A stretch of DNA of 64,000 nt, taken from NCBI GenBank assembly GCA_009914755.4, contig CP068257.2, positions 7,136,001 to 7,200,000 on the forward strand, in the 5' to 3' direction. A model generated the notes under the pieces. The model ran no database searches and had not been told where the DNA came from. It saw only the letters and a list, made by a program, of their open reading frames with translations. Both the position numbers and the translations under genes were made by a program. Below are positions 4,801 through 41,240 of the stretch, piece after piece (within the stretch, counting starts at the first letter, position 1; each line of letters starts with the position of its first letter). This DNA comes from the human T2T-CHM13v2.0 reference genome, Homo sapiens.

Positions 4801-5510
4801 GAATGGAATGAAATGGAATGGAATGGAATGGAATGGACTCGAATGGAATGGACTGGAATGGAATGGACTGGAATGTAATAGATTGGAATGGAATGGACAC
4901 AAATGGAATGGACTCAAATCTAAAGGAATCGATTGGAATGCAACAGAATGCAATCAAATGGAATGTAAAGGAATAGAATGGAATGGAATGGAATGGAATG
5001 GAATGGAATGAACTCGAATGGAATTCACTGGAAAGCAATGGACTGTAATGGAATAGACTGGAATGGAATGGACTCGAATGGAATGGAGTGGAAGGGAATT
5101 GTCTCGAATGGAATGGAATCAAAAGGAATGGAATGGCACAGTCTTAAATTTAATGCAATCGAATGGAATGGAAACGAATGGAAATTAATCAATTGAAATG
5201 GAAATGTATAGAATAGAAAGGAATGGAATGGAATGGAAAGGAGTGGAATGGAATGGAATGAAATGCAATCGAATGGAATGGCATCGAATGGAATGGAATG
5301 GAATAGAAGAGAATGGAATGGAATGGAATGGACTCGAATGTAATTGACTAGAATGGAATGGACTCGAAAGGAATGGACTCGAATGGAATGGAATAGAATG
5401 GAATGGAATCGAAAGGAATGGAATGGAAACGAATGGAAGAAAAGCGAATGGAATTGAATCGAATTGAATTAAATCAAATGCAGTTTAATCAAATGGAATG
5501 GAATTAAATG
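4800..5510 (+). repeat. GGAAT-dominant satellite block (actcgaatgg / aatcgaatgg punctuation)
   Basis: Direct reading. It ends in an AT-rich degenerate stretch (gaattgaattaaatcaaatgcagtttaatcaaatgg) just before GGAGT units resume at ~5,510. Confidence 0.7.
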
Positions 5511-8500
5511 GAAGGTAGTGGATTGGAATGGAATGGAATGGAGTGGAATGGAATGGAATGGACTTGAATGGAATGGTATGGAGTTGAGTGAAGTGGAGTG
5601 CATGGAGTGGAGGGGAAAGGAGTGGAATGGAATGGAATGGGAAGGAATTGAATTGAACGGGGTGGAGTGGATTGGAGGGGACGGCAATATAATGGAATAG
5701 AGTGGAGTGGAGTGGAATGGAATGGAATGCAGTGGAATTGAATGGAGTGGATTGGATTGGAATGGAGTGGAATGCAATGGAATGGAGTGGAGTGGAGTGC
5801 AGCGGAGCGGAGTGGAAAGGAGTGGAATGGAATGCAATGAAATGGAATGGAGTGGAATGGAGTTGAGTGGAATGGATACAATGGATTTGAGAGGAATAGA
5901 GTGGAATGGAATGGAATGGAATGGACTTGAATAGAATGGAGTGGAATGGAATAGAATGGAATCGAACGGAATGGAATGGAAGGGAATGGACTCGAATGGA
6001 ATGGACAGGAATTGAATGGAATTGAAAGGAATGGAATTGTGTGGCATCAAATGAATTCGAATGGAATGCGGTGAAGTGGAGTTGAGTGGAGTGGAATGCA
6101 GTGGAATGGAAAGTGGTGGAAAGGAATTGAATGGAGTGGAGGGGAGATGAATGGAGTGGAATGGAATTGAATGGGAAAAAATGCAATTGAACTGAATGGA
6201 GTACAGTGGATTGGAGTGGAGTGGAGTGGAACAAAATGGAATGGAGTGGAGTGGATTGGAGTGGATTGGAGTGGAATGGAGTGAAATGGAGTGGAGTGGA
6301 ATGTATTGGAATGGAATGGAGTGGAATGGAATGGATTGGAGTGGAGTGGAGTGTAATGGAGTGGAGTGTCATGGAGTGGAGTGGAGAGGAGTGGATTGGA
6401 GTGGAATGGAGTGAAATGAAATGGAAGGGAGTGGAGTGGCATTGAGTGGAGTGGAATGCAATGGAGTGGAGTGGAATAGAAAGGAATGGAATGGAATGCA
6501 ATGTTGTGGAATGGAATTGAATGGAATGGACTCGAATGGAATATAATTCAATGAAATGGAATGCAATGGAATGGAATAGAATTGAAGAGAATGGAATTTA
6601 ATGGCATCGAATGGTATCAAATGACTTGCGACTAAGAGGATTGGAAGGGAATGGAGAGGAGCCGAATGGAATGGAATGAAATGGAATGTATTGGACTGGA
6701 ATGGAGAGGGGTGGCGTGGACTGGAGTGCCGTGGAGTGGAGTAGAATGGAATGGATCGGAGTGGAATGGAATGGAATGGAGTTGAATGAAACGGAATGGA
6801 AGGGAATGGAATGGAATGGAATGCAATGGAATGGAATCGAATGGCATCGAATTTAATCAAATGGAATGCGATGAAGTTGATTGGAGTGCACTACAGTGGA
6901 GTGGAATGGAATGGGGTGCCATGGAAATGAATGGAGTGGAGTGGCACGGAATGGAGTAGAATGGAATGGAATGGGAAGGATTGGAATTGAACGCAGTGGA
7001 GTGCAGTGGAGTGGAACGTAATGGAATGGAATGTAAAGGTCTGGAGTGGAGTGGATTTGAGTTGAATGGAAAGCAGTGGAGTGGAAAGGAGTACAGTGGA
7101 ATTGTTGGAAAGGAATGGAATGGAGTGGAGTGGAGTGGAATGCAGTGGAATTGAGTGGAGTGGAGTGGAGTGGAATGGAATGGTGTGGAGTTGAATATAT
7201 TATAGTGGAGTGGAATGGAGTAGAAAGGAAAGGAGTGGAGTAGAATTGGTGGAATGGAATGGAATACAATAGAGTGGAGTGGAGTTAAGTAGAATGTAAT
7301 GTAGTGGAAGGGAATGGAATGGAAAGCAATGGAATCGAAGAGACTCCAATGGAATGTAATGGAATTGAATGAAATTGAATGTAATGGCATCGAATGGAAT
7401 GCAATCAAATGGAATGGACTCAAATAAAATGGAATCTAATGGAATGGAATTGAAGGGCATCGAATGTAATCGAATTCAATGAGTTAAAGAGGACGGAGGT
7501 GCAGTGTTATGGAGTGGAACGGAATAGAACAGGAAGGAATGGAGTTTACTGGAGAGTGGTGGAGTGGAGTGGAGTGGAATGCAATAGAAGTGAAAGGAAT
7601 GGAGTGGAATGGAATGGATTGGAGTGGCATGGAGTGGAGTGGAGTGGAATGCAGTGGAATGGAGTAGAATGGAGAGGAATGGAATGGAGTGGAATGGAAT
7701 GGCGTGGAGAAGAATGGAGTGAAGTGAAAAGGAGTGGAGTGGAGTGGAATGGAATAGAATGGATTGGAATGGAATGGAATGGATTGCAATGGACCCAAAT
7801 AGAATGGAATCAAATGGAATGGAACCGAATGGAATGGAATCAAAGGGAATCGAATCTAACCGAATGGAATGCAGTGAAGTGCAGTGAAGTGGAATGGAAA
7901 GGATTGGAATGGAATCGAATAGAAAGGGGTGGAATGGAAGTGAATGGAGTGGAGTGGAGTGGACTGGAGACGAATGGAAAGGAAAGGGAAGGAATGGAAT
8001 TGAACGGAGTGGATTGGAGTGGAATGGAATGGAGTGGAATTCAATGGAATGGAATAAAATGGAGTGAAGTGGAGTGGAGTGCATAGGAATGGAATGAAGT
8101 GTAGTGGAGTGAAACGGAGTGCATTGGAGTGGAATGAAATGGAGTGGAGTGGAATGGAACAGAAAGGAATAGAGTGGAGTGGAGTGGAATTGAATACAAT
8201 GGAAAGGAATGGTTTCGAATGGAATGAAATGGAATGGAATTGAAGGGAATTTAAAGGAATGAAGGGAGTGGACGGGAATGGAATGGATTGGAATGGAACG
8301 GAAACAAATGGAGCGGACTGGAAACGAATGGACTGGAATGGAAGGGACTGCAATGGAATGGACTCGATTGGAATTTTATCGATTGGAATGGAATCGAATG
8401 GAAGGTAATAAATGGAATGGAAACGAATGGAATGGAATCGAATGGAATGGAAAAGAAAAGCATCAAAAGGAAACAAATGGAAAGGGGTGAAGTGGAGTGT

Positions 8501-11500
8501 AGTGGAGTCGAAGGGAGTGGAATGGAATGGAATGGGGTGTAATGGAATTTAATGGAGTGGAGTGGAATTGAGTGGTATGGGATGGAATTAAAAAGAATGG
8601 AATGGATTGTAGTGAGGTCGAGTGGAGTGGGATGGAGGAGAGTCGAGTGGAATGGAATGAATTCGAATAGTATAGAATGGAATGGATTCGAATGGAAAAG
8701 ACTCGAATATAATAGAATGAAATGAAATGGACTCGAATGGAATGGAATCTAATTAAAAGGAAACGAAAACAATGGAATCCAATGGAATGGAATTGAGTTG
8801 AACGGAATTGAATGGATAGTATTCAAATGGAATGGAAAGGAATGAAATGGAGGCGAATGGAATGGAATCAAATGTCATAGAATGGAATCTAATGGAATGT
8901 GTTGAAGAGGATTAGTGTGGACTGGAAAGGAGTGGAATGGAATGGGGTGGAATGGAAATTAATTGAGTGTAGTGGATTGGAATGGAGTTGAAAGGAATGG
9001 AATGGGCAAGAATGGAATGCGAAGGAATGGAGTTGAAAGGAGTGGAGTGGAGTCGAGTGGAGTGGTATGGAATGCAATGGAATGGAATAGGAAGGAATGG
9101 AATGGAATGGAATGGAGTGTAGTGGAATGAAATGGAATTTAGTGGAATGGAATGGAGTGGAATGAATGGAACGGAATTGAATGGAATGGAATGGAGTGGA
9201 GTGGAATTTAGTGGACTGGAGTGGAATGAAATGGAATGGAATGGAATGGAAAGGTATGGAATGGAAGGGAATGGAATGGATTTAAATGGAATGGTCTCAA
9301 ATGGAATGAAATTGAAAGGAAAGGAATCGAATGCATTGGAATTAAGTGGAATGGAATCAAATGGAATGGAATCAAAAGTAATAGAAATGAAGAGAATGGA
9401 ATCGAGGGGAAAGGAATAGAATGACTTCGAATGGAATCGTATGGAATGGAGTGAGGTGGAGTGGAGTGGAATGGAGTGCAATGGAGTGGAATGGAATGGA
9501 GCGGAGTGGAATGAAGAGCAATGGAATAGAAAGGAATAGAATGGAATGGAATGGAGTGGAATGGAGTGCAATGGAGTGGAATGGATAGGAATAGAGTGGA
9601 ATGGAATGGAATGGAGTGGAATGGAATTGAATGGAATGGAGTGGAATGGAATGAAGTGGAATGGAATGGAAAGGAACGGAATGGAATGGACTGGAGTGGA
9701 ATGGAGTGGATTAGAGTAGAATGGAATGGAATGGACTCTAATGGAATGGAAAAGAATGGAATGGATTCTAATTGAAAGGCATCGAATGGAAGGGAATCGA
9801 ATGGCATCGAATGGAATAGAATGGAATGTGATGAAGTGTTGTGGGGTGGATTGCAAAGGAGGGGAATGTAATGAGTTGGAATGGAATTGAATGGAGTGGT
9901 GTGGAGCAGAGTGGAATTGAGTGAAATAAAATGGAATGGCGAGGAATGGAAAGGGATGGAATGGAACTGAATGGAGTCGATTGGAAGGGAGTGGAATGGA
10001 GTGGAATGGAATGGAATCGGAAAGAAATTGAATGGATTGGAGTGGAATGGAATGCAAAGGAATGGAATGGAATGGAATCAAATGGAATGGAATGGAGGGG
10101 AGTGGAAGGTAATGGAATGGAATGGATTGGAATGTGGTCGAGTTGAGTGGAGTTCAGTGGAATTGAGTGGAGTGGAATGAAATGGAGTGGAATGGAGTGG
10201 AGTGAAATGGAATGGAGTAGAGTTGAATGGAATCGACTGGACAAGAATGGAATGGAATGGAATGGAATGGAATGGACTTGAATGGAAAGGACTGGAATGG
10301 AATGTACTCCAAAGGAATGCATTTGAATTTAATGGAACCGAATGGAATGGAATCGAATGGAATGGAAGTGAATGGCATCGAACGGAATCGAGTTGAATGC
10401 AGTGAACTGGAGTGGAGAGGAGTGGAATGGATTGGAATTGAGTGGAATGGAAAGGAATGGGAAGGAATGGAATGGAATGGAGTGGAGGGGAGTGGAGTCG
10501 AGTGGAGGGGAGTGGATTCGAGTGGAGCGGATTGAAATGCAATGGAATGCAATGGAAGGGATTAGAGTGGAGTGGAGGGGAATGGAGTGGAGTGGAATGG
10601 AATGGAATAGAATGGAATCGAAAGCAATAAAATCGAATTCAATGGAAGTGAAGGGCATCGAATGCCATCGAATGGAGAGAGGTGAAGTGGAGTGGAGTGT
10701 TACGGAGTGGAAGGGAATGGGGTGGAATGGAAGAGAATGGACTGGAGTGGCGTGGAATGGAGTGTAATGGAATGGAATGGGAAGGAATGGAATTGAATGG
10801 ATAGGAGTGGAGTGGATTGGAATGGAATGGAAAGGAAAATAATGGGGTGGAGTGGAGTGGAGTGGACTAGAGTGCAGTCGAATGGAGTGGAATGGAGAGA
10901 AATTCAATGGAATGGAAAAGAGTAATGGAATGGAATGTAGTGGAGTGTAGTGAAGAGGAAAGGAATGAAATGGACTGGAATAGAATAGAATGGAATGGAA
11001 TGGAACGGAATGGAATGGACACGAGTGGAATGGAACCGAAAGGAATGTACTCGAATGGAATGGAATCGAAAGGATGGGAATAGAAAGGAAATGGATCGAA
11101 TGGAATGGAATTGAATGGAGTGGAATCGAATGGACTGGAAGCAAATGACATCGAATGGAAATGAATGGAATGCGGGGAAGGGGAGTGGAGTGAAGGGGAG
11201 TGGAGTGGAGTGGATTGGAATGGAATGGGGTGGAATGGAATTCAATGGAGTGGAGTGGAGTCAAGTGGAATGGAGTAGAATGGAATAAAATGGAATGGAA
11301 TCCAATGGAATGGACTGGAATTGAGTAGAATGGAATGGAATGGAATGGCATGCAATGGAATGGAAGCTACTGGAATGGCATCAATTAACATCGAATGGAA
11401 TTGAATGAGGTGGAGTGTAGTGGAGTGTAATGGAATGGGGTGGAATGGAATTGAATGGAGACGAGTGGAGTGGAGTGGAATGGAATGGAATGGAATGGAG

Positions 11501-14099
11501 TGGAGTGGAATGGAATGGAGATGAACAAATTGGAGTGCAAAGGAGTGGAATGGAAAGCAATGGAATGGAAAGGAATAGAATGGAATGGAATGGAATGCAA
11601 TGCAGTGGAATAGAATGGAGTGGAGTGGAATGGAATGGAATGGAGTGGAGAGGAATGGAATGGAATGGAGTGGAATGGAATGAAGTGGAATGGAATGGAA
11701 AGGAACAGAATGGAATGGACTGGAGTTGAATGGAGTGGATTGAAGTGGAATGGAATGGACTCGAATGGAATGGAAACGAATGGAATGGATTCTAATGGAA
11801 TGTCATCGAATGGAAGGGAATCGAATGGCATCAAATGGAATAGAAAAGAATGAGGTGAAGTGTTGTGTGGAGTGCAACGGAGTGGAATGGAATGAGAAGG
11901 AATGGAATTGAATGGAGTGGTGTGGAGCAGGGTGGAATGGAGTGGAATGAAAAGTAATGCGAAGGAATGGAATGAGACAGAATGGAACTGAATGGAGTTG
12001 ACAGGAGTGGGGTGGAATAGAGTGGAATGGAATGGAATCAGAAGGAAAGGATTTGAATGGATTGAAGTGGAATGGACTGGAGTGGAATTCAATGCAAAGG
12101 AATGGAGTGGAATGGAATGGAATAAAATGGAATGGAATGGAGTGGAATGGACTGGAGTGGAATGGAATACAAACGAATGGAAAGGAACGGAATTAAATGG
12201 AATGGAATGGAGTGGAATGGAGTGGAATGAAGTGGAATGGAATGGAGAGGATTAGAAGGTAATGGAATGGAATGGAATGAAATGCGGTCGTGTGGAGTGG
12301 AGTTTAGTGTAATAGGGTGGAGTGCAATGAAATGGAGTGGAGTGGAGTGAAATGGAATGGAATAGAGTTTAATGGAATGGAGTGGAGTGGAATGGAATGG
12401 AATGGAATGGAATGGACTTGAACGAAAAGGACTGGAATAGAATGTACTAGAATGGAATGCACTTGAATTGAATGGAATCGAATGGATTGGAATCGAAATG
12501 AATGGAATCGAACGGAATGGAATCGAATGTCGTCGAACGAAATCGAGTTGAATGCAGTGAGCTGGAGTGGAGTGGAGTGGAATGGAGTGGAATTGAAGGG
12601 AATGGAAAGGAATGGGAAGGAATGGAATGGATTGGAGTGGATTGGAGTGGAGTGGAGTTGATTGAAATGCAATGGAATGCAATAGAATGGAGTGGAGTGG
12701 AGTGGAGTGGAGGAGAATGGAGTGGAGAGGAATGGAATGGAATGGAATGGGACGGAATGGAATGGATTGCAATAACATCGAATGCAATGGAAGCGAATGA
12801 CAACGAATGCAATCGAATGGAGTGTGGTGGAGTGGAGGGGAGTGGAGTGGAATGGAGGGGAATGGAATGGAATCAGAAGGAATGGAATGGAATGGAGAGG
12901 AGTGGAGTGGAATAGAATCGAAAGGAAAGGAATAGTGTGGAGTGGAGAGGAGAGGAGTGCAGTCGAATGGAGTGGAATGGGTAGAAATTGAACGGAATGG
13001 AAGTGTAATAGAATGGAATGTAGTGGAGTGTCCTGAAGTGGAATAAAAAGAAATGGACTGGAATAGAATGGAATGGAATGGAATTGAATGGAACTGAATG
13101 GAATAGAATGGAATGGAAAGGAATGGAATGGACTCCAGTGAAATGGACCTGAATGGAATGGATCCGAATGGAATGGAATCGAAAGGAAGGGAATACAAAG
13201 GAATGGGATCGAATGGAATGGAATTGAATGGAATGGAATCGAATGGACTGGAATCGAATGGCTTTGAATGGAATCGAATGGAAAGCGGGAAAGGGTAGTG
13301 GAGTGGAGTGGATTGGAATGGAATGGGGTGGAATGGAATTGAATGGAGTGGAGTGGAGTGGATTCGAGTGGAATGGAGAGGAATGGAATATAATGGAATG
13401 GAATGGAATGTCCTGGAATGGAATAAAATGGAATGAAATGGAATGGAATGGAAGCAAACGGAATGGAATTGAACTACATCAAATGGAATCAAATGGAATG
13501 AGGTGAAGTGCAGAGGAGTGGAGTGAAATGGAATAGGTTGGAATGGAATTGAATGGAGAGGATTGGAGTGGAATGGAATGGAATGGAATGGATAGGGAAG
13601 GAATTTAATTGAACGGAGTGGAGTGGATTGGAGTGGGGTGGAATGCAATGGAACAGTATGGAACGGAGTGGAGTGTATTGGAGTGGAGTGCAGTGGAGTG
13701 CAGTGGAATAAAGTGGAATTGAATGCAATGGAATGGAATGGAGTGGAATATAACGGAATCGATTGGAGTGGATTGGAGTGGAATGGAATGGAATAGACAG
13801 AAATGTAAAAGAATGGAATGGAATAGAATGTACTGGACTCTAATGGAATGGACTGGAAGGGAATGCAATCCAATGGAAGGGAAACGAATGGAATCATTGA
13901 ATGGAGTGGAATCAAATCTAATGGAATGGAATGAAATTGAATGGAATCGAATGGAATGCGAGGAAGTGCAGTGGAGTGGAGTGGAATGGAGTGGAATGGA
14001 ATGGGGTGGAATGGAAATGAATGGAGTGGAGTGGAATGGAATTAAATTGAATGGAATGGAAAGGAATGGAATTGAACGGAGTGGAATGGAGTGGAATTG

Positions 14100-15000
14100 A
14101 ATTCAATGGAATGGAATGGAGTGGAATGGAGTGAAATAGAGTGGATTGGAATGAAGTGGAATGGAGGGGAATGGAATGGAGTGGACTGGAGTGAAGTAGA
14201 GTGGAGTAGAATGGACTGGTATAGAATGGGATGGAGTAGAATGGAAGGATTGGAATGGAGTGGAGTGGAGCGGAGCAGAGTCTAGTGGAATGGAGTTGAA
14301 TGGAATGGGGTGGAACCGAATTGAATAGAGTCGAGTGGAGTAGAATTGAATGGAGTGGAATGGAATGGACTGGGAAGGCATGGAAATGCAAATGTTGGAG
14401 TGGAGTGGAGTGGAATGCAAATAAATGGAATGGAATGGAGTGGAGTGGAGGGAAGTGGAGTGAAGTGGAAAGGAATGGAATGGAGTGCAATGGAGTGGAG
14501 TGGAATGGAATGGAGTGGAGTGGAGCGGAGTGGAGTGAAGTGGAATGGAATGGAAAGGATGGGACTGGAGTGGAGTGGAAAGGAAGGGAATGGATTGGAG
14601 AAAAGTGGAGTGCAGTGGAGTGATGACGGATGTAATGGAATGGATTGGAGTGGAGTGGTTTGGAGTGGAGTGGAGTGGAATGGAGGGTAATGGCATGGAA
14701 TGGATTAGAATGGAATGGAATGGAATGGAAACGAATGGAATGAAATCGAATGTCATCGAATGGAATCGAATGGAATGCGGTGAAATGGATTGGAGTTGAG
14801 TAGAATAGAGTGGAATGGAATGGGGTGGAACGGAATTGAATGGAGAGGAGTGGACTGGAGTGGAATGTCGTGGAATGAAATGGAATTAGAAGGAATCGAA
14901 TTGAACAGAATGGAGTGGAATAGAGTGGAGAGAAGTGGAATGCAATGGAATAGAAAGGAATGGAATGGAATGGAATGGAAGGGAAGGGTATTGAATGGAA
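14100..15000 (+). repeat. Kilobase-scale paralogous segment A (partner at 20,100-21,250)
   Basis: Shared strings: ggagtct(a/g)g(t/a)ggaatggagttgaatggaatgggatggaac(c/a)ga(at)ttgaatagagtcgagtg(g/t)agtagaattgaat(g/a)gagtggaatgg..ggaaggcatggaaatgcaaa. Further downstream: ggagtggtttggagtggagtggagtgg..ggagggtaatgg..ggaaacgaatggaatgaaa(t/g)cgaatg(t/g)catcgaatg..gaatgc(g/t)gt(g/a)aaatggattggagttgagtagaatagagtg(g/a)aatggaatggggtggaa. Same order and spacing in both segments. Confidence 0.65.
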
Positions 15001-18000: not shown

Positions 18001-18174
18001 AGGAATGGATTTGAATGGAATGGACTCGAATGGAATGGAATCAAATGGAATGGCATGGAATAAAATGGAATGAAACGGAAAGGAATCAAATGAAATGAAA
18101 TGGAATGGAATGCAATGGAATGGAATAGAAAGGAATGGAATGGAATGGAATGGAATGGAATGGAATGGAATGGA

Positions 18175-18554
18175 ATGGAACAGAACAGAATGGAATGGAA
18201 TGGAATGCAATAAAATCGAATGTAATGGAAGCGAATGGCATGAATACAATCGAAAGGATTGTGGTGGAGAGGAGGGGAGTGGAGTGGAGTGGAATGGAGT
18301 GGAAGGGAATGGGGTGGAATGGAAGTGAATGGAGTGGAATGGATTGGAATGGAATGGAAAGGAACGGAACAGAATGGAATGGAATGGAATGGAATGCAAT
18401 AAAATCGAATGTAATGGAAGCAAATGGCATGAATACAATCGAAAGGATTGTGGTGGAGAGGAGGGGAGTGGAGTGGAGTGGAATGGAGTGGAAGGGAATG
18501 GGGTGGAATGGAAGTGAATGGAGTGGAATGGAATGGAATGGAGTGGAATTGAAT
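18175..18554 (+). repeat. Near-perfect 190-bp tandem duplication (2 copies) inside the composite domain
   Basis: aatgcaataaaatcgaatgtaatggaagc(g/a)aatggcatgaatacaatcgaaaggattgtggtggagaggaggggagtggagtggagtggaatggagtggaagggaatggggtggaatggaagtgaatggagtggaatgg occurs at ~18,204 and again at ~18,394 with a single visible mismatch. ORF 18135..18581 shows the same 63-aa periodic repeat. Confidence 0.85.
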
Positions 18555-20099
18555 GGAATCAGAAGGAATGGAATAGAATAGAGTGCAGTGTAGTGGAGTG
18601 GAACGGAATGGAAAGGTATAGGGTGGAGTGGAGTGGAGTGGATTGGAGTGCAGTCGAATGGAGTGGAATTGGTGGATATTGAACAGAATGGACAAGAGTG
18701 TAATGGAATGGAATGTAGTGGAGTGTAGTGAAGTGGAATAAAATGAAACGGACTGGAATAGAATGGAATGGAATGGAATGGAATGGAACGGAATGGAATG
18801 GACTCCAGTGGAAAGGACCTGAATGGAATGGACTCGAATGGAATGGAATTGAAAGGAAGGGAATGGACTGGAATCCAATGGCATGAATGAAATCGAATAG
18901 AATGCGATGAAATGGATTAGAGTTGAGTAGAATAGAGTGGAATGGAATGGCGTGAAACGGAATTGAATGGAGTGGAGTAGATTGGAGTTGAATGGAGTGG
19001 AATGGAATGGAATTGGAAGGAATGGAATTGAACGGGGTTGAGTGGAATAGAGGGGAATGCAAGGAAGGGGAGTGGAGTGGAGTGGAATGGAATGGGGTGG
19101 AGTGGAATTTAATAGAGTGGAGTGGAGTCGAGTGGAATGGAATATAATGGAATGGAATGGAAGAGAAAGGACTGGAATGGAATAGAATGGAATGGATTGG
19201 AATGGAATGGAATGGAATCGAATGACAATGAATGGAATCGAATGGAATGAGTTGAAGTGGAGTGAAGTCGAGTGGAATGGAATGGGGTGGAATGGAATTC
19301 AATGGAGGGGATTGGAGTGGAGTGGAATGGAATGGAATGGATAGGGAAGGAATGGAATTGAACGGAGTGGAGTGGAATGGAGTGGAGTTGAATGGAGTAT
19401 AATGGAATGGATATGGAAGGAATGGAATTCAACGGAGTGCAGTGGATGGGAGTGGAGTGGAATGCAATGGAATGGTATGGAATGGAGTGGAGTGGAGTGG
19501 AGTGGAGTGCAGTGGAGTGGAGTGCAATAAAGTGGAATGGAATTGAATGGAATGGAATGGAGTGGATTAGACTGAAATGGAGTGGAGTGGATTGCAGTGG
19601 AATGGAAAGGAATAGACACAAATGTAAAAGAATGGAATGGAATGGAATGCACTGGACTAATGGAATGGACTGGCATGGAATGGACTGGAATGCAATGGAA
19701 TCGAATGGAAGGGAAACGAATGGAATCATATTGAATGGGGTGGAATCGAATCTAATGGAATGGAATGGCAATGAATGGAATCGAATGGAATACCGGGGAG
19801 TGGAGAGGAGTGGAGTGGAATGGAGTGGAATGGAATGGTGTGGAATGGAAGTGAATGGAGTGGAGTGGAATCGAGTGGAATGGAGTGCAATGGAAAGGAA
19901 TGGGTAGGAATGGAATGGAATGGGTATGAATGAAATAGAATGGAGTGGAGTGGAAAGGAGTGGTGTGGAATGCAATGGAATGGAATAGAATGGAGTGGGG
20001 TAGAGTGGAATGGAATTGAATGGAGTGGAATGGAAAGGAATGGAATTGAACAGAGTGGAGGGGAGTGGAATTGAATTCAATGGAATAGAATGGAATGGA

Positions 20100-21250
20100 A
20101 TGGAATGGAATGGAATGGAATGGAATGGAGTGAAATGGAGTGGAATAGAGTGGATTGGAGTGAAGTGGAATGGAGAGGAATGGAATGCAAAGGAGTGGAG
20201 TACAGTGAAGCAGAGTGGAGTACAAAGGAGTGAAATAGAATGGAATGCAGTAGAAAGGTAGGAGTGGAATGGAATGGAGTGGAGTAGAGTGGAGTCTGGA
20301 GGAATGGAGTTGAATGGAATGGGATGGAACAGATTTGAATAGAGTCGAGTGTAGTAGAATTGAATAGAGTGGAATGGAGTGGAATGGAATGGATTGGGAA
20401 GGCATGGAAATGCAAAGAGTGGAGTAGAGTGGATTGGAGTGGAATGCAAAGGAATATAATGGATTAGAGTGGAGTGGAGGGAAGTGGAGTAAAGTGGAAT
20501 GGAATGGAATGGAGAAGAGTGGAGTGAAGTGGAGTGAAGTGGAATAGAATTGAATGAAGTGGAATGTAATGGAATGGAATTGATTGGGAAGGCATGGAAA
20601 TGCAAAGAGTGGAGTGGATTGGGGTGGATTGGACTGGAATGCAAAGGAATTGAATGGAATGGAGTGGAGTGGAGTGAAGTGGAGTGAAGTGGAATGGAAT
20701 GGAATGGAGAGGAGTGGAGTGAAGTGGAGTGAAGCGGAATGAAATGGAATGGAGTGCAATGAAGTGCAGTGGAATGGAATGGAATGGAGTGGAGTGGAGC
20801 AGAGTGGAGTGAATTGGAATGGAATGGGTGGGACTGCAGTGGAGTGGAAAGGAATGGAATAGATTGGAGACAACTGGAGTGGAGTAGAGTGATAAGGGAT
20901 GGAATGGAATGGAGTGGAGTGGAGTGGTTTGGAGTGGAGTGGAGTGGAGTTGAACGGAGGGTAATGGAATGGAATGGATTGGAATGGAATGGAATGGAAT
21001 GGAAACGAATGGAATGAAAGCGAATGGCATCGAATGTAATCGAATGGAATGCTGTAAAATGGATTGGAGTTGAGTAGAATAGAGTGAAATGGAATGGGGT
21101 GGAATGGAATGCGGTGGAAATGGGGTGGAACGGAATTGAATGGAGTGGAGTGGATTGGAGTGTAATGGAGAGGAATGGAATGGAATTGGATGGAATGGAA
21201 TTGAACGGAGTGGAGTGGAATAGAGTGGAGTAAAGTGGAATGCAATGGAA
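20100..21250 (+). repeat. Kilobase-scale paralogous segment A' (partner of 14,100-15,000; offset ~6.0-6.3 kb)
   Basis: See the partner feature. Additionally, an internal ~190-bp duplication of ggaatggattgggaaggcatggaaatgcaaagagtggagt.. lies at ~20,385 and ~20,575. Confidence 0.65.
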
Positions 21251-22240
21251 TGGAAAGGAATGTAATGTTAAGTAATTGAATGGAATGGAATGGAATGAAA
21301 TGCAACGGAAAGGAGTGGAGTGGATTGGAATGGAATGCAATGGAGTGGAATGTAATGTAATTGTGTAGAATGGAATAGACTACAACGGATTGGAATCAAA
21401 TGGACTCGAATGGAATAGACCCAAATGGAATGGACTCGAAAGGAATGGCATCGAATATATTGGAATGGAATGGATTCGAATAGAACGGACTCAAAAGGAA
21501 TGGACAGGAATGGAGTGAACTCAAATGGAATGTAGTTGAATGGAAAGGAATCAAATGGAATGGAATCAAATGGAATGGAATAGATTGGAATGAAATTGAC
21601 TGGAATAGAATGCAATCGAAAAGAATGGAATAGAATGAAATGGAATCGAAAGGAATGGAGTCAAATGGAATGAAATGGAATGGAATGGAATTAAATAGAC
21701 TGGAATGGGATACAATCGAAAGGAATGGAATAGAATGGAATGGAATGGAATGGAATGGATGGGAATTGAAGGGCATCGAATGGCATCATATGGAATGCGG
21801 TGAAATGGAGTGGAATGGATAGGAATGGAGTGGAATTGAATGTCTTGGAATGGAATTGAATGGAGTGGGGTGGAATGGAGGGCAAGGGAGTGGAATGCAA
21901 TGGAATAGGAAGGAATGGAATTGAGTGGAGTGGAGTGGTGTGGAGTAGGTTGGAGTGGAGTGGAATTGAACGGAGTGAAGTCGAGTGGAGTGGAGCGGAG
22001 TGCAGCCAAATGCAATGGAATGGACTCGATCTGAATGGACTGGAATGGAATGGACACGAGTGGAATGGAGTCGAATGGAATGTATTCCAATGGAATGGAA
22101 TGTATTCCAAAGGAATGGAATCGAAAGTAATGGAATCGAATGGCATCGAATGGAATCGAATGGAATGCGATGAAGTTGAGTGGAGTGGAGTGGAATGGAA
22201 TGGAAATGAATAGGGTGGAATGGAATTGAATGGAGTTGAG

Positions 22241-22400
22241 TGGAATGGAGTGTAAAGAAAAGGAATGGGAAGGAATGGAAATGAACAGAGTGGAGTGGAG
22301 AGGAGTGAAGTGGAGTGGAGTGGAATGGAGTGTAAAGAAAAGGAATGGGAAGGAATGGAAATGAACAGAGTGGAGTGGAGAGGAGTGAAGTGGAGTGGAG
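22241..22400 (+). repeat. Perfect 80-bp tandem duplication
   Basis: tggaatggagtgtaaagaaaaggaatgggaaggaatggaaatgaacagagtggagtggagaggagtgaagtggagtggag is present at 22,241-22,320 and identically at 22,321-22,400. Confidence 0.85.
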
Positions 22401-24699
22401 TGGAATGCAATGGAATAGAATGGAAAGGATGGAGTGCAGTAGAGTGCATTGAAATGGAATGCAATGGAAAGGAATGGAGTCGAGTACAGGGGAGTGGAGT
22501 GGAGTGGAATGGAATGGAATGGACTCAAATGGAATGGAATTGAATGGAGTAGACATTAAATGGAAAGGACACGAATGGAATGGAATCAAAAGGGATGGAT
22601 TCAAATGGAATGGAATCGAATGACATGGAATGGAATCGAATGGAACGCGATTAGGCTGAGTGGAGTGGAGTGAAATGGAGTGGAATAGAATATTGTGAAT
22701 TGGAATTGAATGGAGTGGAGTGGAGTGGATTGTAATGGAGTGGAATGGAATGGAATGGGAAGGAACGGAATTGAACGGAGTGGAGTGGAGAGGAGTGACG
22801 TGGAGTGGAGTTGAATGCAATGGAATAGAATGGAAAGGAGTGGAGTGGATTGGAGTGGAATGCAATGGAATGGAATGGAGTGGAGTAGAGGGGAGTTGAG
22901 CGGAGTGGAGTGGAATGGAATGAAATGGAATGGAATGTACTCAAATGGAATGGACTCAAATAGAGTGGACGGGAATGGAATGGACTCGAATGGAATGGAT
23001 TCGAACGCAATGGAATCGAATGGGATGGATTCAAATGCAATGGAATCGAATGACATCGAATGGAATAGAATGGAATGCGATCAAGTGGAGAGCAGTGGAG
23101 GGGAATATTGGGGAATGGAATGGTGTGCAAAGGAATTCAATGGAATGGACTGGAGTAGAGTGGAATGGATTGAAATGGAATGGAATGGGAAGGAATGGAA
23201 TTGAACAAAGTGGAGTGAAATGGAGTGGAGAGGAATTGAATGAAATGGAATGGAGTGGAATGGAATGGAGTGATGTGGAATGGAAACGAAAGGAACAGAA
23301 TGGAATGGAATGGAATGGACTCGACTAGAACGGACTGGAATGGAATGCACTTTAATGGAATGGACAGGAATGGAATGGACTCGAATGGAAGGGAATCAAT
23401 TGAAAAGGAATCGAATGGAATGGATTAGAATGGAATGGAATAAATGCAATGGAGTCGAAAGGAATGGAATCAATTGTAAAGGAATTCAATGGCATCAAGT
23501 GTAATCGACCAGAATGTGATGAAGTGCAGTGGAGTGGAATGGAATACAATGCAATGGAATGGAATGGATTGGAGTGGAGAGAACTGGAGTGGAGTGGAGT
23601 GAAGTGGACTGGAGTGTAGTGGAATGCAGTGTATTGCAATGGAGTGGAATGAAGTAGAGTGGAGTGGAATGGAGTGGAATGGACTGGAATTGAGTGGAAT
23701 TGAATGGAATACAATGGATTCAAAAGGATTGGACTCGAATGGAATGGAAGCAAATGGAATGAAATCCAAAGGAATGGAAACGAATGGAATGGAATCTAAA
23801 GGAATGGAATGGAATCGAATGGAATGGAATCAAATGGAATGGAATGGAATGGAATGGAATTAAATGGACTGCAATGGAATTTAATCGAAAGGAATGGAAT
23901 GGAATCGAATGGAAAGGAACTGAAGGGCATTTAATGGCATTGAATGGAATGCGGTGAAGTGGAGTGGAAGGGATTGGAATGGAATGCAATAGAAAAGAAT
24001 GGAATGAAATGGAATGGAATGGAATGGAATTGCATGGCATTGAATGGAATGCAGTGAAGCAGAATGGAAGGGATTGGAATGGAGTGGAATTGAATGGGTT
24101 GGAATGGAATTGAGTGGAGTGTGGTGGAATGGAGGGGAATGGAGTGGAATGCATAGGAATGGGAAGGAATGGAATTGAAAGGAGTGGAGTGGAGTACATT
24201 GGAGTGGAGTGTAATTGAACGGAGTGTGGTCGAGTGGAGTGGAGTGCAGCAAAATTGAATGGAATGGAATGGACTCGATTTGAATGGACTGGAATAGAAT
24301 GGACACGAGTGTAATGGACACGAGTGGAATGGACTCAAATGGAATGCAATCAAATGGAATGGAAGCAAAAGGAATGGAATCGAAAGGAAAGGAATCGCAT
24401 GGCATTGAATGGCATCGAATGGAATGTGATGAAGTTGAGTGGAGTGCAGTAGAATGAAGTAGAATGGAATAGGGTGGATTGGAATTGAATGGAGTGGAGT
24501 GCAACGGAGTGGAATGGAATAGAATGGGAGGAATGGAATTGAACAGAGAGGAGTGGAGAGGATTTAAGTGGAGTGGAGTGGAATGCCATGGAATAGAATG
24601 GAAAGGAGTGGAGTACAGTGGAGTGGATTGGAGTGGAATGCAATGGAATAGAATGGAGTGGAGTAGAGGGGAGTGGAGTGGAGTGCAGAGGAATGGAAT

Positions 24700-27600
24700 G
24701 GAATGGTATGGAATGGACTCAAATGGAATGGAATGGAAACGAATGATATCGAACATAATAGGATGGAATGCAATGGAATAGAATGGAAGGGAATGGATGA
24801 AATGGAATGCAATGGAATGCAATGGAAGGGAATAGATGGAATGGAATGCAATGGAATGGAATCACATGGAATGCAATACAGTGGAGTGGAATGGAATCTA
24901 ATGGAAAAGAATGGAATGGAATGGAATAGAATGGAATGGAATCGAATGGAATAGAATAAATGGAATGGAATGGAATGGACTCAAAAAGAAAGAACTCGAA
25001 TGGAATGGAACCGAATGGAATAGAATGGAATGGACTCAAATGTAATGGACTGAAATGGAATGGACTGCAACGGAATGGAATCGAATGGAAAGGATTCGAA
25101 TGGAATGGAATGGAATGCACTCGAACGCAATGTACTGGAATGGAATTGACTCGAGTGGAATGGACAGCAATGGAATTGACTCTTATGGAAAGGATTGGAA
25201 TGTAATGTAGTTGAATGGAATGGAAACTAATGGAATGGAATGGAATGCAATCGAATGGAATGCAATCGAGTGGAATGGAATCGAATGGAAAGGAATGGAA
25301 TAGATTTTAATGGAATGTACTGGAATGGAATGGAATAGAAAGGAATCGAATGTATTGGAATGGAATGGAGTGGAATGGACTCGAATGTAATGGAATGGAA
25401 TTGAAAGGACTGCAATGAGATGGATTTGAATAGAATGGAATCCAATAGAATGGAATCAAATGGATTTTACTGGAATGGAATGGAATCGAATGCAATCGAC
25501 GCTAAAGGAATGGAATCAAAAGCAATGGAATTGATAATAAGGGAATCGAATGGATTGGAATGGAATAGAATCGAATATAATGGAATGGAACGGAATGAAT
25601 GCAATGCAATGGAATGGAATGGAATCTAATAAAATGGAATGGAATGGAGTGGAATCGATTAGAATGGAATGGTATGGACTCGAATGGAATGGATTGGAAT
25701 GGATTGGAGTGGAATGGAATGGAATGGAATGGACTTGAATGGAATGGGCTCAAATGGAATGGAATCGAATGGAATACAATGGAATGGACTCAAATGTAAT
25801 GGACTGGAATGGAATGGACTCCAATGGAATGAACTTGAACGTAATTGACTCGAATGGAATGGAATCCAGTGAAATGGAATGGAATGGAATGGAACAGAAT
25901 TGAATGGAATGGACTCGAAGGAAATGTACTGGAATGGAAAGGACTCGAATGGAATGGACTCAAATGGTGTTGACTGGAATGGAATGGAATCGAATACAAT
26001 GGACTCCATTGAAATGGACTCGAACGGAATGTAATAGAATGGAATGGAATGCAATGGAATGGAATGGAAAGGAATGGAATCGACTGAAATGGACTAGAAT
26101 GGAATCTACTAGAATGAAACGGACTCCAACGGAATGGATTCGAAGGGAATGCAGTCAAGTAGAATGGAATCAAATGGATTGGAATCTAATTGAATGGAAT
26201 GTAATGGAATCAAATGGAATGGAATGGATTGGAATGGAATGGAATGGACTTGAATGGGCTCAAATTGCATGGAATCGAATGGAATAGAACAGAATGGAAT
26301 GGACTCAAATTTAATGGACTGGAATGGAAAGGACTCCAATGGAATGGACTCAAACATAATTTACTCGAATGGAATGGAATCCAGTGAAATGGAATGGAAT
26401 GGAATGGAACAGAATTGAATGGAATGGACTCAAAAGAAATGTACTGGGATGGAATGGACTCAAATGGAATGGACTCGAATGGCGTGGACTGGAATGGAAT
26501 GGCATCGAATAGAATGGACTCCATTGAAATGGACTCGAATGGAATGCATTAAAATGGAATGAAATCGAATGGAATGGAATGGAAAGCAATGAAATCGACT
26601 GGAATGGACTAGAATGGAATCTACTAGAATCAAATGGACTCCAACGGAATTCGAAGGGAATGCAGTCAAATGGAATGGAATCGAATGGATTGGAATCTAA
26701 TGGAAAGGAATGAAATCGAATGGAATGGAATCAAAAGAAATGGAATGGAATGCAACAGAATAAAATGGTATGGAATCAAGTAGAGGTGAATGGAGTGGAT
26801 TGGAATGAAATGGAATGGACCCGGGTGAAAAGGACTCGGAGTGGACTCCGAGTGGAGTGTACTCGAATAGAAAGGACTCAAAAAGAATGGAACTGAATCG
26901 AATGGAATGGAACCAAATGGATTGGAATGGAATGGAATGGAATTTAATGGAATGGAATGGTATGGAATGGAATGGAAAGGAATGGAATGGAATGGAATGG
27001 AATTGAATGGAATGGAATAGCATGGTATGGACTTGAATAGAATGGAATGGACACGAATGGAATGGATTCAAGTGGAATGGACTCAAATTGAATGGATTCA
27101 AATGGAATGGAATCGAATGGAATGCAATCGAGGGGCATGGATTCTAACGGGTTGGAATCGAATGCAATGGAACGTAATGGAATGGACCCGAAAGGAATGG
27201 ACTCAAAGAAAATGGACTGGAATGGAATGGAATGGAGTGGAATGGAGTGAAATGTAACGGAATACAATCGAATGGAATAGAATTGAATGGAATGGACAGG
27301 AATGGAATGGACTACAATGGAATGGAGTAGAATGGAATTGATTCGATTTGAATACATTCGAATGGGATGGATTTGAATGGAATGGACTTGAATCGAATGC
27401 AATCGAATGGAATGGAACTGAAGGGAATGGAGTCAAATTCAATGGACAGGAGTAGAATGGACTGGAATGTAATGGAAGCGAATGGAATGGACTGGATTGA
27501 TACCGACCCGAATGGAATAGACACAAATGGAATGATATCAAATGGAATGCAATGAAATGCATTTGATTGGAATCGAAAGGAATGGAGACGAATATTATGG

Positions 27601-40989: not shown

Positions 40990-41240
40990 GGAATGGAATG
41001 GAATGGAATGAATGGAATGAAATGAATGGAAACTAATGGAATTGAATGGAAACAACCCGAGTGGAATGGAATGCGATGGAATGCACTGGAATGGAATGGA
41101 ATGGAATGAAATGGAATGGAATTCAACATAATGGAAACAATCCGAGTGGAATGGATTGGAATGGAAAGGACTGAAATGTAATGGAATGGATTGGAATCAA
41201 ACCGATTCCAATGCAGTGGAATGGAATGGAATGGAATGGA
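40990..41240 (+). repeat. Landmark higher-order-repeat module, copy 1
   Basis: AAACTAATGG .. AACAACCCGAGTGG .. ATTCAACATAATGGAAACAATCCGAGTGG .. GGACTGAAATGTAATGG .. AATCAAACCGATTCCAATGCAGTGG. Other copies lie at ~45,235-45,435, 47,290-47,470, 48,700-48,935, 51,215-51,310, 52,965-53,180, 53,530-53,725, 54,075-54,275, 56,055-56,265, 57,640-57,790 and 59,950-60,085. Confidence 0.7.

What the first reader, a model, noticed from the sequence alone, without database searches (positions are those of the whole stretch)
5510..24700. Composite GGAAT/GGAGT block architecture with a conserved junction motif
The domain is not homogeneous pentamer. GGAAT-rich sub-blocks (with ACTCGAATGG) alternate with GGAGT-rich sub-blocks (GGAGTGGAGTGG, GAAGTGGAGTGG). 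The 5' edge of nearly every GGAGT sub-block carries a variant of CATCGAATGGAATCGAATGGAATGCGGTGAAGTGGAGTGG, seen at more than 17 positions. The CATCGAATGGAATCGAATGG part resembles the HSat2-type unit, while the flanks are satellite III-like. Such a regular alternation implies a long higher-order unit that has been amplified. It may define a distinct satellite III subfamily.
Basis: seen in the sequence. Interest (0 to 1): 0.55.

Follow-up and report, generated by a model that had tools for sequence, protein, structure and literature searches.

The report
Known acrocentric satellite III (HSat3A4) array
This 21-kb stretch is an ordinary piece of an already catalogued human satellite III subfamily (HSat3A4, the GGAAT/GGAGT type of acrocentric short arms), and its recurring "junction" is the conserved core of a very diverged, variable-length repeat unit rather than something new.

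Summary
Window ~3,950-24,900 is the only GGAGT-rich part of a 64-kb, single-orientation (GGAAT)n satellite. It consists of about 33 polar units: CGAAT-bearing GGAAT, then the junction, then a GGAGT-rich tract, then plain GGAAT. The 40-mer junction occurs 19 times at <=5 mismatches. Shuffles give 0, and the other 43 kb give 0. Position-specific conservation extends about 100 bp to each side.

There is no regular long higher-order repeat. Unit length runs from 215 to 1,993 bp (median ~478). Whole units are barely more alike than random in-phase segments (68.3% against 65.9%). Only local multi-unit duplications exist, at ~2.0-2.25 kb and ~5.7-6.3 kb offsets with 81-90% identity.

It is not a new subfamily. 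The published diagnostic HSat3A4 24-mer lies 110-125 bp after the junction, both here and in 91 independent satellite contigs retrieved with the junction motif (44 exact hits; 0-1 for each of the other 13 subfamilies). GGAAT/GGAGT satellite III on acrocentric arms has been described since 1990-2001. Interleaving of ACTCC runs with the HSat2-ancestral decamer was reported in 2024. The HSat2 resemblance is a single 20-bp decamer dimer, and HSat2 hallmarks are absent.

Verdict: already known, low interest.

The parts
3950..24900 (+). GGAGT-rich composite satellite III domain (HSat3A4-type); edges are gradual
   Evidence: GGAGT counts per kb; all 42 GGAGT blocks lie in 3973-24697; boundary sequence read
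4052..4091 (+). junction core copy (6 mismatches to 40-mer)
6045..6084 (+). junction core copy (4 mismatches)
6845..6884 (+). junction core copy (6 mismatches)
7848..7887 (+). junction core copy (7 mismatches)
8461..8500 (+). junction core copy (7 mismatches)
8876..8915 (+). junction core copy (7 mismatches)
9425..9464 (+). junction core copy (5 mismatches)
9805..9844 (+). junction core copy (5 mismatches)
10376..10415 (+). junction core copy (5 mismatches)
10656..10695 (+). junction core copy (5 mismatches)
11149..11188 (+). junction core copy (4 mismatches)
11384..11423 (+). degenerate junction copy (8-mismatch hit at 11389, apparently with a 5-bp deletion; CATCGAATGG retained)
11829..11868 (+). 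degenerate junction copy (8 mismatches), paralogue of 9805
12261..12300 (+). junction copy lacking the CATCG half (7 mismatches)
12531..12570 (+). degenerate junction copy (8 mismatches), paralogue of 10376
12801..12840 (+). junction core copy (6 mismatches)
13262..13301 (+). junction core copy (7 mismatches)
13477..13516 (+). junction core copy (5 mismatches)
13935..13974 (+). junction core copy (5 mismatches)
14754..14793 (+). junction core copy (2 mismatches, joint best)
15659..15698 (+). junction core copy (5 mismatches)
15909..15948 (+). junction core copy (5 mismatches)
17121..17160 (+). junction core copy (3 mismatches)
17411..17450 (+). junction core copy (7 mismatches)
19226..19265 (+). 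junction core copy (5 mismatches)
19769..19808 (+). junction core copy (7 mismatches)
21028..21067 (+). junction core copy (5 mismatches)
21774..21813 (+). junction core copy (4 mismatches)
22144..22183 (+). junction core copy (2 mismatches, joint best)
22624..22663 (+). junction core copy (7 mismatches)
23054..23093 (+). junction core copy (5 mismatches)
23928..23967 (+). junction core copy (4 mismatches)
24403..24442 (+). junction core copy (5 mismatches)
10771..10794 (+). exact match (reverse complement) to the most common HSat3A4-specific 24-mer of Altemose 2014, 115 bp after junction 10656
23179..23202 (+). exact match (reverse complement) to the same HSat3A4 24-mer, 125 bp after junction 23054
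9533..11494 (+). first copy of a local ~2.0-2.15-kb five-unit tandem duplication
   Evidence: self-BLAST HSPs at offsets 2029-2150, 81-86% identity; dot plot
11562..13592 (+). second copy of that tandem duplication
12833..15072 (+). first copy of a dispersed multi-unit duplication
   Evidence: HSPs at offsets 5686-6300, 83-90% identity
18519..21357 (+). second copy of the dispersed duplication
21722..22954 (+). block duplicated at 23976-24732
   Evidence: HSPs at offsets 1779-2254, 83-88% identity
23976..24732 (+). partner of block 21722-22954
18101..18587 (+). 189-bp tandem repeat, 2.6 copies, 91-93% identity, nested in the domain

Best explanation
Window ~3,950-24,900 is a stretch of human satellite III of the already defined subfamily HSat3A4. 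This is the GGAAT/GGAGT 'group 2' satellite III of acrocentric short arms, the pTRS-47 / pR-1 / pR-2 / pR-4 / pE-2 family. It lies between HSat3A1/A2-like arrays (1-3,950 and 24,900-40,000) and an HSat3B-like array (40,100-64,000).

Shown: the array is built of about 33 head-to-tail polar units. Each unit reads, 5' to 3':
- a GGAAT tract carrying C-variants at 15-bp spacing (AATCGAATGGAATGG);
- one dimer of the HSat2-ancestral decamer (CATCGAATGGAATCGAATGG);
- the unique string AATGCGGTGAAGTGG;
- a GGAGT-rich tract with a GGGGT marker at about +65 and the HSat3A4 signature 24-mer at about +115-125;
- plainer GGAAT.

Inferred mechanism:
1. A→G transitions in (GGAAT)n created GGAGT. Slippage and unequal exchange spread it into runs.
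2. One composite unit of roughly 0.25-0.5 kb was then amplified as a nested tandem repeat.
3. The pentameric tracts inside each unit kept expanding and contracting in pentamer register, which gives the variable unit length.
4. The non-pentameric junction cannot slip, so it survives as the recognisable landmark. It decays mainly at its three CpGs.
5. Later, local duplications of multi-unit blocks (about 2-2.8 kb) were superimposed.

Nothing here suggests a function beyond that of pericentromeric or acrocentric heterochromatin. GGAGT tracts lack the TEAD core GGAATG, so they lower the TEAD-site density of this array.
For: Identity as HSat3A4:
- The published top HSat3A4 24-mer is exact at 10771 and 23179. 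It occurs at <=1 mismatch at 11 sites in the domain, against 7 in the other 43 kb.
- Top 24-mers of HSat3A3, 3A5, 3A6, 3B1-B5 and HSat2 give no hit at <=1 mismatch in the domain. Of the other subfamilies only HSat3A2 scores there, with one exact hit at 22061.
- A collection scan with the junction string returned 91 satellite contigs (229 kb; 31.5% GGAAT, 14.5% GGAGT). Their junction-centred consensus reproduces the window's flanks.
- In those contigs the HSat3A4 24-mer is exact 44 times in 33 contigs. The top 24-mers of the other 13 subfamilies total 0-1 each.
- The 24-mer lies 110-125 bp after the junction start in 8 of 11 window sites, and 100-139 bp after it in 31 of 43 contig sites (27 of them at 110-129).
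- Literature: acrocentric satellite III is made of GGAAT and GGAGT in differing proportions, with group 2 = pTRS-47, pE-2, pR-1, pR-2, pR-4 (PMC6862356). All of these clones type as HSat3A4 (PMC4022460 Table S1).
- HSat3A4 has the lowest 24-mer compression (6.0), only 65 specific 24-mers and no ring topology, described as 'short or inconsistent repeat units'. This matches the divergence seen here.
- ACTCC (= GGAGT) runs map to chr13, 14, 15, 21 and 22 and are interspersed with AATCGAATGG (PMC11305138).

Anatomy.

Mechanism:
- 17 of 32 unit lengths are multiples of 5 (p=3e-5).
- TG or CA accounts for about half of the non-CG states at the three junction CpGs.
- Local duplications are seen.
- Other loci of the family show their own local periods of 1.3-1.6, 2.0-2.3 and 2.8 kb at 78-90% identity. 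This agrees with locally evolving nested tandem repeats (bioRxiv 10.1101/2021.07.12.452052).

The sequence is real: contig L044 matches window 20961-22236 at 99.53%.
Against: - Only one of the 65 HSat3A4-specific 24-mers could be tested. The stored copy of the k-mer file is truncated.
- One exact hit to the top HSat3A2 24-mer also lies in the domain, at 22061.
- qPCR primers published for pTRS-47 and pR-1 do not match the domain or any of the 91 contigs specifically. No link to a particular cloned unit is therefore shown.
- Species and chromosome were not determined directly. Human origin is inferred from the satellite type and from matches in contigs most simply explained as host contamination of metagenome assemblies.
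- The order of evolutionary events is inference.
Confidence: 0.85

Rival explanations
1. One reading: a previously undefined satellite III subfamily built on a long, regularly amplified higher-order repeat unit.
For: - Units are homologous and polar.
- Multi-unit duplications exist at ~2.0-2.25 kb and 5.7-6.3 kb.
- The junction string itself was not found in any paper of the searchable library.
Against: - No array-wide period is seen.
- Unit length varies about 9-fold.
- Whole-unit identity is about 2 points above the in-phase background.
- The HSat3A4 diagnostic 24-mer is part of the same conserved core.
- The composite is described in the literature.
Confidence: 0.04
2. An HSat2/HSat3 hybrid: the junctions are relics of recombination between an HSat2 array and a satellite III array.
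For: - CATCGAATGGAATCGAATG is 19 of the 24 bases of the top HSat2A2 24-mer.
- Short-read work finds ACTCC runs interspersed with the HSat2-ancestral decamer.
Against: - Only one decamer dimer is present per unit.
- ATCATCGAATGG and CATCATCGA are absent from all 64 kb.
- The top HSat2A1, 2A2 and 2B 24-mers have 0 hits at <=1 mismatch in the window, and 0 hits in the 91 contigs.
- CGAATGGAAT-type variants are also common in the neighbouring HSat3A-like arrays. CGAATGGAATCGAATGG occurs 3 times in 24.9-40 kb.
Confidence: 0.03
3. The ~240-bp junction core is kept by selection, for example as a protein-binding site, a transcription start for satellite III RNA or a recombination signal. On this reading it is not merely a non-slippable relic.
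For: - It is conserved above background in 33 window copies and 84 unique copies from other loci.
- It is the most C- and CpG-containing spot of the unit.
Against: - The three CpGs are retained in only 36-53% of copies, with TG/CA decay products. This is as expected for neutral, methylated DNA.
- Copies average about 5 of 40 mismatches to the consensus.
- No Rfam family matches.
- Folding shows no structure at the junction. The only hairpin comes from two stray ATTCC pentamers.
- Common descent plus inability to slip explains the pattern.
Confidence: 0.05
4. Chance recurrence of a low-complexity string.
For: The background is pentameric, so loose matches (8 or more mismatches) to the 40-mer occur throughout the window.
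Against: - 19 hits at <=5 mismatches, against 0 in 200 pentamer shuffles, 0 in 200 decamer shuffles and 0 in the other 43 kb.
- Flanks are conserved.
- The polarity is consistent.
Confidence: 0.01

Closest known systems
HSat3A4 (Altemose et al. 2014, PMC4022460), annotated on acrocentric chromosomes; 'acrocentric-specific subfamily' in PMC11526998
   Same: - The top diagnostic 24-mer is present exactly, at a fixed place in the unit.
- A-type composition, with no CAACCCGA decamer.
- Very heterogeneous, with no consistent repeat unit.
- Neighbours are other HSat3A and HSat3B arrays, as on acrocentric short arms.
   Different: Nothing that was tested differs. Only 1 of the 65 diagnostic 24-mers could be checked, and the chromosome is not known.
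Group 2 acrocentric satellite III clones pTRS-47 (1366 bp), pR-1 (1529), pR-2 (1556), pR-4 (1026), pE-2 (584) (Choo 1990; Bandyopadhyay 2001, as cited in PMC6862356 and PMC4022460 Table S1)
   Same: - Mixed GGAAT and GGAGT motif composition.
- All of these clones type as HSat3A4.
- Related contigs show 1.3-1.6 kb internal periods similar to the published unit sizes.
   Different: - Published pTRS-47 and pR-1 qPCR primers find no specific site here.
- The local periods in this window are ~2.0-2.25 kb, not 1.0-1.6 kb.
- The clone sequences themselves were not available for alignment.
ACTCC / AATGGAATGGAGTGG / AATCGAATGG interleaved simple satellites (PMC11305138, Genome Biol Evol 2024)
   Same: - Tandem GGAGT (= ACTCC) runs on chr13, 14, 15, 21 and 22, interspersed with the HSat2-ancestral decamer and with AATGGAATGGAGTGG.
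- The present domain shows that arrangement base by base.
   Different: - That study inferred the interleaving statistically from short reads and did not tie it to HSat3A4.
- Here the decamer dimer is seen to sit immediately 5' of each GGAGT tract, within a conserved ~240-bp core.
Nested tandem repeats (NTRs) of HSat2,3 (T2T centromere paper, bioRxiv 10.1101/2021.07.12.452052)
   Same: Longer units are nested on a pentameric base, and the periodicity varies locally along an array.
   Different: No single period dominates here. Copies are 81-90% identical and mostly present as two copies, unlike the tight kilobase-scale units of DYZ1 (HSat3A6) or D15Z1 (HSat3A5).
HSat2
   Same: Shares the 20-bp (CGAATGGAAT)2-type string at each junction.
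   Different: - No ATCATCGAATGG.
- No HSat2-specific 24-mers.
- No 23/26-bp unit structure.
- Not a member.

Membership tests
Human satellite III (HSat3) | Tandem array derived from the pentamer GGAAT/CATTC | tested here: met
   TRF reports period 5 over 3500-25496 with 69% matches. Lag-5 identity is 0.69. There are 50-76 GGAAT per kb.
HSat3A4 | Presence of subfamily-specific 24-mers (65 defined; >1% of reads of the subfamily, <0.1% of any other) | tested here: met
   Only the top 24-mer was available. It is exact at 10771 and 23179, with 11 sites at <=1 mismatch in the domain. It is exact 44 times in 33 of 91 junction-bearing contigs, against 0-1 for each other subfamily. It sits at a fixed offset from the junction. 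Caveat: one exact HSat3A2 top 24-mer lies at 22061.
HSat3A4 | Full 24-mer or 5-mer-vector classification as in Altemose 2014 | not testable with these tools
   The stored Dataset S2 is truncated to HSat2A1 and HSat2A2 k-mers.
HSat3A4 | Heterogeneous array without a consistent repeat unit (lowest 24-mer compression, no ring topology) | tested here: met
   Unit length is 215-1993 bp. Whole-unit identity is 68.3% against a 65.9% background.
HSat3A4 | Location on acrocentric chromosomes 13, 14, 15, 21, 22 (minor Y) | not testable with these tools
   No human reference genome is available here. The neighbouring HSat3A1/A2-like and HSat3B-like arrays are compatible with this location, but that is not a test.
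Group 2 acrocentric satellite III (pTRS-47, pR-1, pR-2, pR-4, pE-2) | Characteristic proportion of GGAAT and GGAGT motifs | tested here: inconclusive
   GGAGTG is at 28/kb and GGAATG at 46/kb in the domain. The numerical criteria of Bandyopadhyay 2001 are not in the held library.
Group 2 acrocentric satellite III (pTRS-47, pR-1) | Sequence identity to the cloned units (tested through published qPCR primer sites) | tested here: not met
   pTRS-47-F, pR1-F and pR1-R have no site at <=2 mismatches. Only the generic pentameric reverse primers match. None of these three primers occurs in the 91 contigs. This is therefore not a copy of those particular amplicons.
HSat2 | HSat2-specific 24-mers, the ATCATCGAATGG-type motif and a decamer-based unit | tested here: not met
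   0 hits at <=1 mismatch for the top 2A1, 2A2 and 2B 24-mers. ATCATCGAATGG and CATCATCGA are absent.
HSat3B subfamilies | CAACCCGA[AG]T decamer interspersed in the pentamer array. My association of this decamer with the B group rests on the B1 24-mer in Table 1 and on the classical satellite III definition. | tested here: not met
   The decamer occurs 0.00 times per kb in 3973-24900, against 3.67 per kb in 40001-64000.
Higher-order repeat / nested tandem repeat array | A fixed long period repeated many times with high copy-to-copy identity | tested here: not met
   There is no long-lag peak. TRF finds only period 5 and one 189-bp repeat. The dot plot shows isolated two-copy duplications at 81-90% identity.

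The most novel reading that the evidence does not exclude
The ~240-bp junction core is a functional landmark of HSat3A4 arrays rather than a passive relic. The core comprises the 15-bp-periodic CGAAT tract, the HSat2-ancestral decamer dimer, GCGGTGAAGTGG, the GGGGT marker and the HSat3A4 24-mer. Possible roles are a phased protein-binding or nucleosome-positioning site, a start site for acrocentric satellite III transcription, or a preferred exchange point that drives unit turnover. Its explicit architecture has not been described in the papers I could search.
Probability: 0.05. Interest if true: 0.45.

Novelty: already known. Interest (0 to 1): 0.12.

Why it matters
It matters little beyond bookkeeping.

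Two small points may be useful:
1. The published HSat3A4 diagnostic 24-mer and the junction motif belong to one conserved core at a fixed spacing. That gives a simple anchor for decomposing this otherwise very heterogeneous subfamily into units.
2. The window shows at base level the interleaving of GGAGT (ACTCC) runs with the HSat2-ancestral decamer, which a 2024 short-read study inferred only statistically and did not assign to HSat3A4.

HSat3A4-type arrays (pTRS-47) lie near Robertsonian translocation breakpoints, so unit-level anchors could help align such regions between haplotypes.

Tried and rejected
- Plain base autocorrelation to 9 kb showed only the pentamer. Phase is lost through indels, so it is uninformative for long periods.
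- An nhmmer profile of the junction ±100 bp hit all 64 kb at similar scores (407 hits). It cannot discriminate on a pentameric background and was abandoned.
- Raw pairwise column identity around junctions was also uninformative for the same reason. It was replaced by relative entropy against a register-matched background.
- Published pTRS-47, pR-1 and pTRS-63 qPCR primers gave no specific match in the domain or in related contigs.
- The original clone papers (PMC332295, PMC1682629) are not held.
- The full subfamily-specific 24-mer file is truncated in the library.
- A literature search for the junction string found nothing relevant.
- Rfam gave no match.
- Long minus-strand ORFs (up to 743 aa) were rejected as artefacts of stop-free (ATTCC/ACTCC)n.
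- DNA folding of a junction region gave z=-3.8. This is caused by two stray ATTCC pentamers pairing with GGAAT, not by the junction.
- Protein-based tools, structure prediction and the phage, plasmid and E. coli collections were not used. Nothing here is coding or prokaryotic.
Full report
**What is in the window**

All 64 kb is (GGAAT)n-derived satellite in a single orientation. ATTCC is almost absent. No 100-bp window has lag-5 identity below 0.45, so there are no transposon or unique-sequence inserts.

Four compositional domains are visible:
- 1 to ~3,950: GGAAT with ACTCGAATGG-type variants.
- ~3,950-24,900: the only GGAGT-rich domain, with 28 GGAGTG/kb against 2-4/kb elsewhere.
- 24,900 to ~40,000: again GGAAT with CGAAT variants, and a strong 15-bp periodicity.
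- ~40,100-64,000: a purer GGAAT array carrying the decamer CAACCCGA[AG]T at 3.7/kb.

The transitions are gradual, with no unique boundary sequence.

**Checking the observation**

144 of 146 GGAGTGGAGTGG and all 10 GAAGTGGAGTGG lie in 3,950-24,900.
- The 40-mer CATCGAATGGAATCGAATGGAATGCGGTGAAGTGGAGTGG has no exact copy. It has 19 copies at <=5 mismatches and 32 at <=7 inside 4,001-25,000, against 0 and 2 in the other 43 kb. Pentamer- or decamer-shuffled versions of the domain give essentially none.
- A 25-bp-resolution track shows a polar order repeated along the domain: CGAAT/CAAAT-bearing GGAAT, junction, GGAGT-rich tract, plain GGAAT.
- 30 of 33 curated junctions have more GGAGT-type pentamers in the 150 bp downstream than upstream. 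32 of 33 have more CGAAT/CAAAT upstream.
- The curated list is 30 of the 32 hits at <=7 mismatches plus three weaker copies that keep the CATCG hallmark (two scan hits at 8 mismatches, 11829 and 12531, and the hit at 11389, which I re-registered to 11384). Hits at 4262 and 20104 lack the CATCG half and were dropped.
'Nearly every GGAGT sub-block' is too strong, since 19 of 42 blocks by my segmentation start within 75 bp of a junction. Long units hold several GGAGT blocks.

**Are the flanks conserved?**

- Stacking the 33 copies shows a conserved upstream AATCGAATGGAATGGAAxCGAATGG.
- Downstream there is a conserved marker AATGGGGTGGAATGGAATTGAATGGAGTGGAGTGG, 50-91 bp (mode 65) after the junction start.
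- Any in-phase stack of a pentameric satellite looks conserved. I therefore scored relative entropy per column against a register-matched background. It exceeds random in-phase stacks from about -100 to +100 bp (z of 3-18 in the flanks, >40 in the 40-mer) and then falls to background.

**Is there a long regular higher-order unit?**

No.

- Junction spacing is 215-1,993 bp, with a median of 478.
- TRF finds only period 5 and one 189-bp repeat.
- Long-lag autocorrelation shows nothing.
- Junction-to-junction units of 370-575 bp are 68.3% identical pairwise, against 65.9 ± 0.5% for random in-phase segments of the same lengths.
- Self-BLAST and a 200-bp-window dot plot show only local duplications of multi-unit blocks:
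  - 9,533-11,494 against 11,562-13,592 (offset 2.03-2.15 kb, 81-86%).
  - 12,833-15,072 against 18,519-21,357 (offset 5.7-6.3 kb, 83-90%).
  - 21,722-22,954 against 23,976-24,732 (83-88%).
- 17 of 32 unit lengths are multiples of five (p=3e-5). Most length change has therefore happened in whole pentamers.

**Related sequences from elsewhere**

- A scan of the metagenome collection with AATGGAATGCGRTGAAGT returned 120 loci. 91 are GGAAT satellite contigs (229 kb; 31.5% GGAAT and 14.5% GGAGT). I take them to be host contamination of metagenome assemblies.
- Their 84 unique junction instances give the same consensus as the window. This includes C-variants at 15-bp spacing upstream and the GGAGT run with the GGGGT marker downstream.
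- Junction density is 1.65/kb, against 1.52/kb in the window. Spacing is equally broad, mostly 150-700 bp.
- One contig (L044, 1,271 bp) matches window 20,961-22,236 at 99.53%. The sequence is therefore real and has been seen independently.
- Longer contigs have their own internal repeats at 1.3-1.6, 2.0-2.3 and ~2.8 kb, with 78-90% identity.

**Identity**

- Altemose et al. [quoted passage not shown]
- In the domain the HSat3A4 24-mer is exact at 10,771 and 23,179. It occurs at <=1 mismatch at 11 sites.
- HSat2 and most other HSat3 24-mers do not occur at <=1 mismatch. There is one exact HSat3A2 hit at 22,061.
- In the 91 junction-bearing contigs the HSat3A4 24-mer is exact 44 times in 33 contigs. 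The other 13 subfamilies score 0-1.
- The 24-mer sits 110-125 bp after the junction start in 8 of 11 window sites. In the contigs it sits 100-139 bp after the junction in 31 of 43 sites, 27 of them at 110-129 bp.
- Table S1 of the same paper assigns the cloned acrocentric satellite III units pTRS-47, pR-1, pR-2, pR-4 and pE-2 to HSat3A4.
- Those clones are the 'group 2' of Bandyopadhyay 2001. That classification is defined by the proportions of the two motifs GGAAT and GGAGT (PMC6862356; also PMC7767330).
- HSat3A4 has the lowest 24-mer compression of all subfamilies and 'short or inconsistent repeat units'. This is as observed here.
- A 2024 short-read study (PMC11305138) found that ACTCC (= GGAGT) runs lie on chr13, 14, 15, 21 and 22. 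It also found them interspersed with the HSat2-ancestral decamer AATCGAATGG and with AATGGAATGGAGTGG. That is the composite seen here base by base.
- Limits: only one of 65 diagnostic k-mers could be tested. Primers published for pTRS-47 and pR-1 do not match. The chromosome could not be determined.

**The HSat2 resemblance**

The left half of the junction is literally a dimer of the ancestral decamer, and it shares 19 bases with the top HSat2A2 24-mer. There is only one dimer per unit. ATCATCGAATGG is absent from the window, and HSat2 24-mers are absent from the window and the contigs. It is a motif resemblance, not membership.

**Mechanism**

Shown:
- polar homologous units;
- pentamer-register length changes;
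- local block duplications;
- CpG positions of the junction retained in only 36-53% of copies, with TG/CA making up about half of the variants.

Inferred:
- A composite unit arose in a (GGAAT)n array after A→G variants spread into GGAGT runs.
- It was amplified by unequal exchange.
- Its pentameric tracts kept expanding and contracting.
- The non-pentameric junction persisted because it cannot slip, and it decayed by CpG deamination.
- This fits the 'nested tandem repeats evolving hyper-locally' picture of the T2T centromere study.

I see no evidence for a specific function. There is no Rfam match. Long ORFs are artefacts. The only predicted DNA hairpin comes from two stray ATTCC pentamers. 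One consequence is that GGAGT tracts lack the TEAD core GGAATG: 46/kb here against 88/kb in the HSat3B-like array. TEAD binding to HSat3 is reported in PMC11526998.

**Verdict**

It is wrong on regularity and on novelty. The interval is a typical piece of the known subfamily HSat3A4. Interest is low.

Noticed in passing
window 40100-64000: A different array: purer GGAAT (88 GGAATG/kb) with the decamer CAACCCGA[AG]T at 3.7/kb, which is HSat3B-like. Top 24-mers of HSat3B1 and HSat3B3 occur at <=1 mismatch (5 and 6 sites). The pTRS-63 reverse qPCR primer is exact at 58752, but the forward primer is absent. Large internal duplications are present, e.g. 40321-42131 vs 48027-49838 (83%), 41704-42576 vs 47477-48370 (88.7%) and 46889-47570 vs 57207-57888 (89.8%).
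   Followed up: partly
window 1-3950 and 24900-40000: The flanking arrays are rich in ACTCGAATGG and CGAAT. The HSat3A1 top 24-mer occurs at <=1 mismatch at 8 sites in these arrays. The 24.9-40 kb part has a clear 15-bp periodicity (lag 15/30/45 peaks). The same 15-bp C-spacing is seen just upstream of each junction in the composite domain.
   Followed up: partly
window 25682-26752: A ~510-bp tandem duplication (25682-26241 vs 26192-26752, 88% identity) in the flanking array.
   Followed up: no
window 18101-18587 and 20355-20761: Short nested tandem repeats of ~189-190 bp inside the composite domain: 2.6 copies at 91-93%, and two copies at 88%.
   Followed up: partly
window 3829-24822, minus strand: There are 37 mechanical ORFs of >=150 aa, all but two on the minus strand and up to 743 aa (19109-21340). 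They exist only because (ATTCC/ACTCC)n has no stop codon in any frame. They are not genes.
   Followed up: yes
window 22084-22116: Two reverse-orientation ATTCC pentamers (22084, 22104) sit inside the GGAAT array and form a small hairpin with neighbouring GGAAT. This alone explains the fold z-score of -3.8 for 22084-22330. The sequence is confirmed by the independent contig L044.
   Followed up: partly
L044 (FLRU01082464.1) vs window 20961-22236: A 1,271-bp metagenome-assembly contig matches the window at 99.53% on the opposite strand. It is evidently the same genomic locus, carried as host contamination. 29 of the 120 loci returned by the motif scan are non-satellite chance matches.
   Followed up: partly
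L001, L023, L046 (metagenome contigs): Three contigs share the same junction spacing pattern (490 bp and 1,348 bp). They probably represent one paralogous locus. The 1,348-bp spacing is close to the published 1,366-bp pTRS-47 unit.
   Followed up: no
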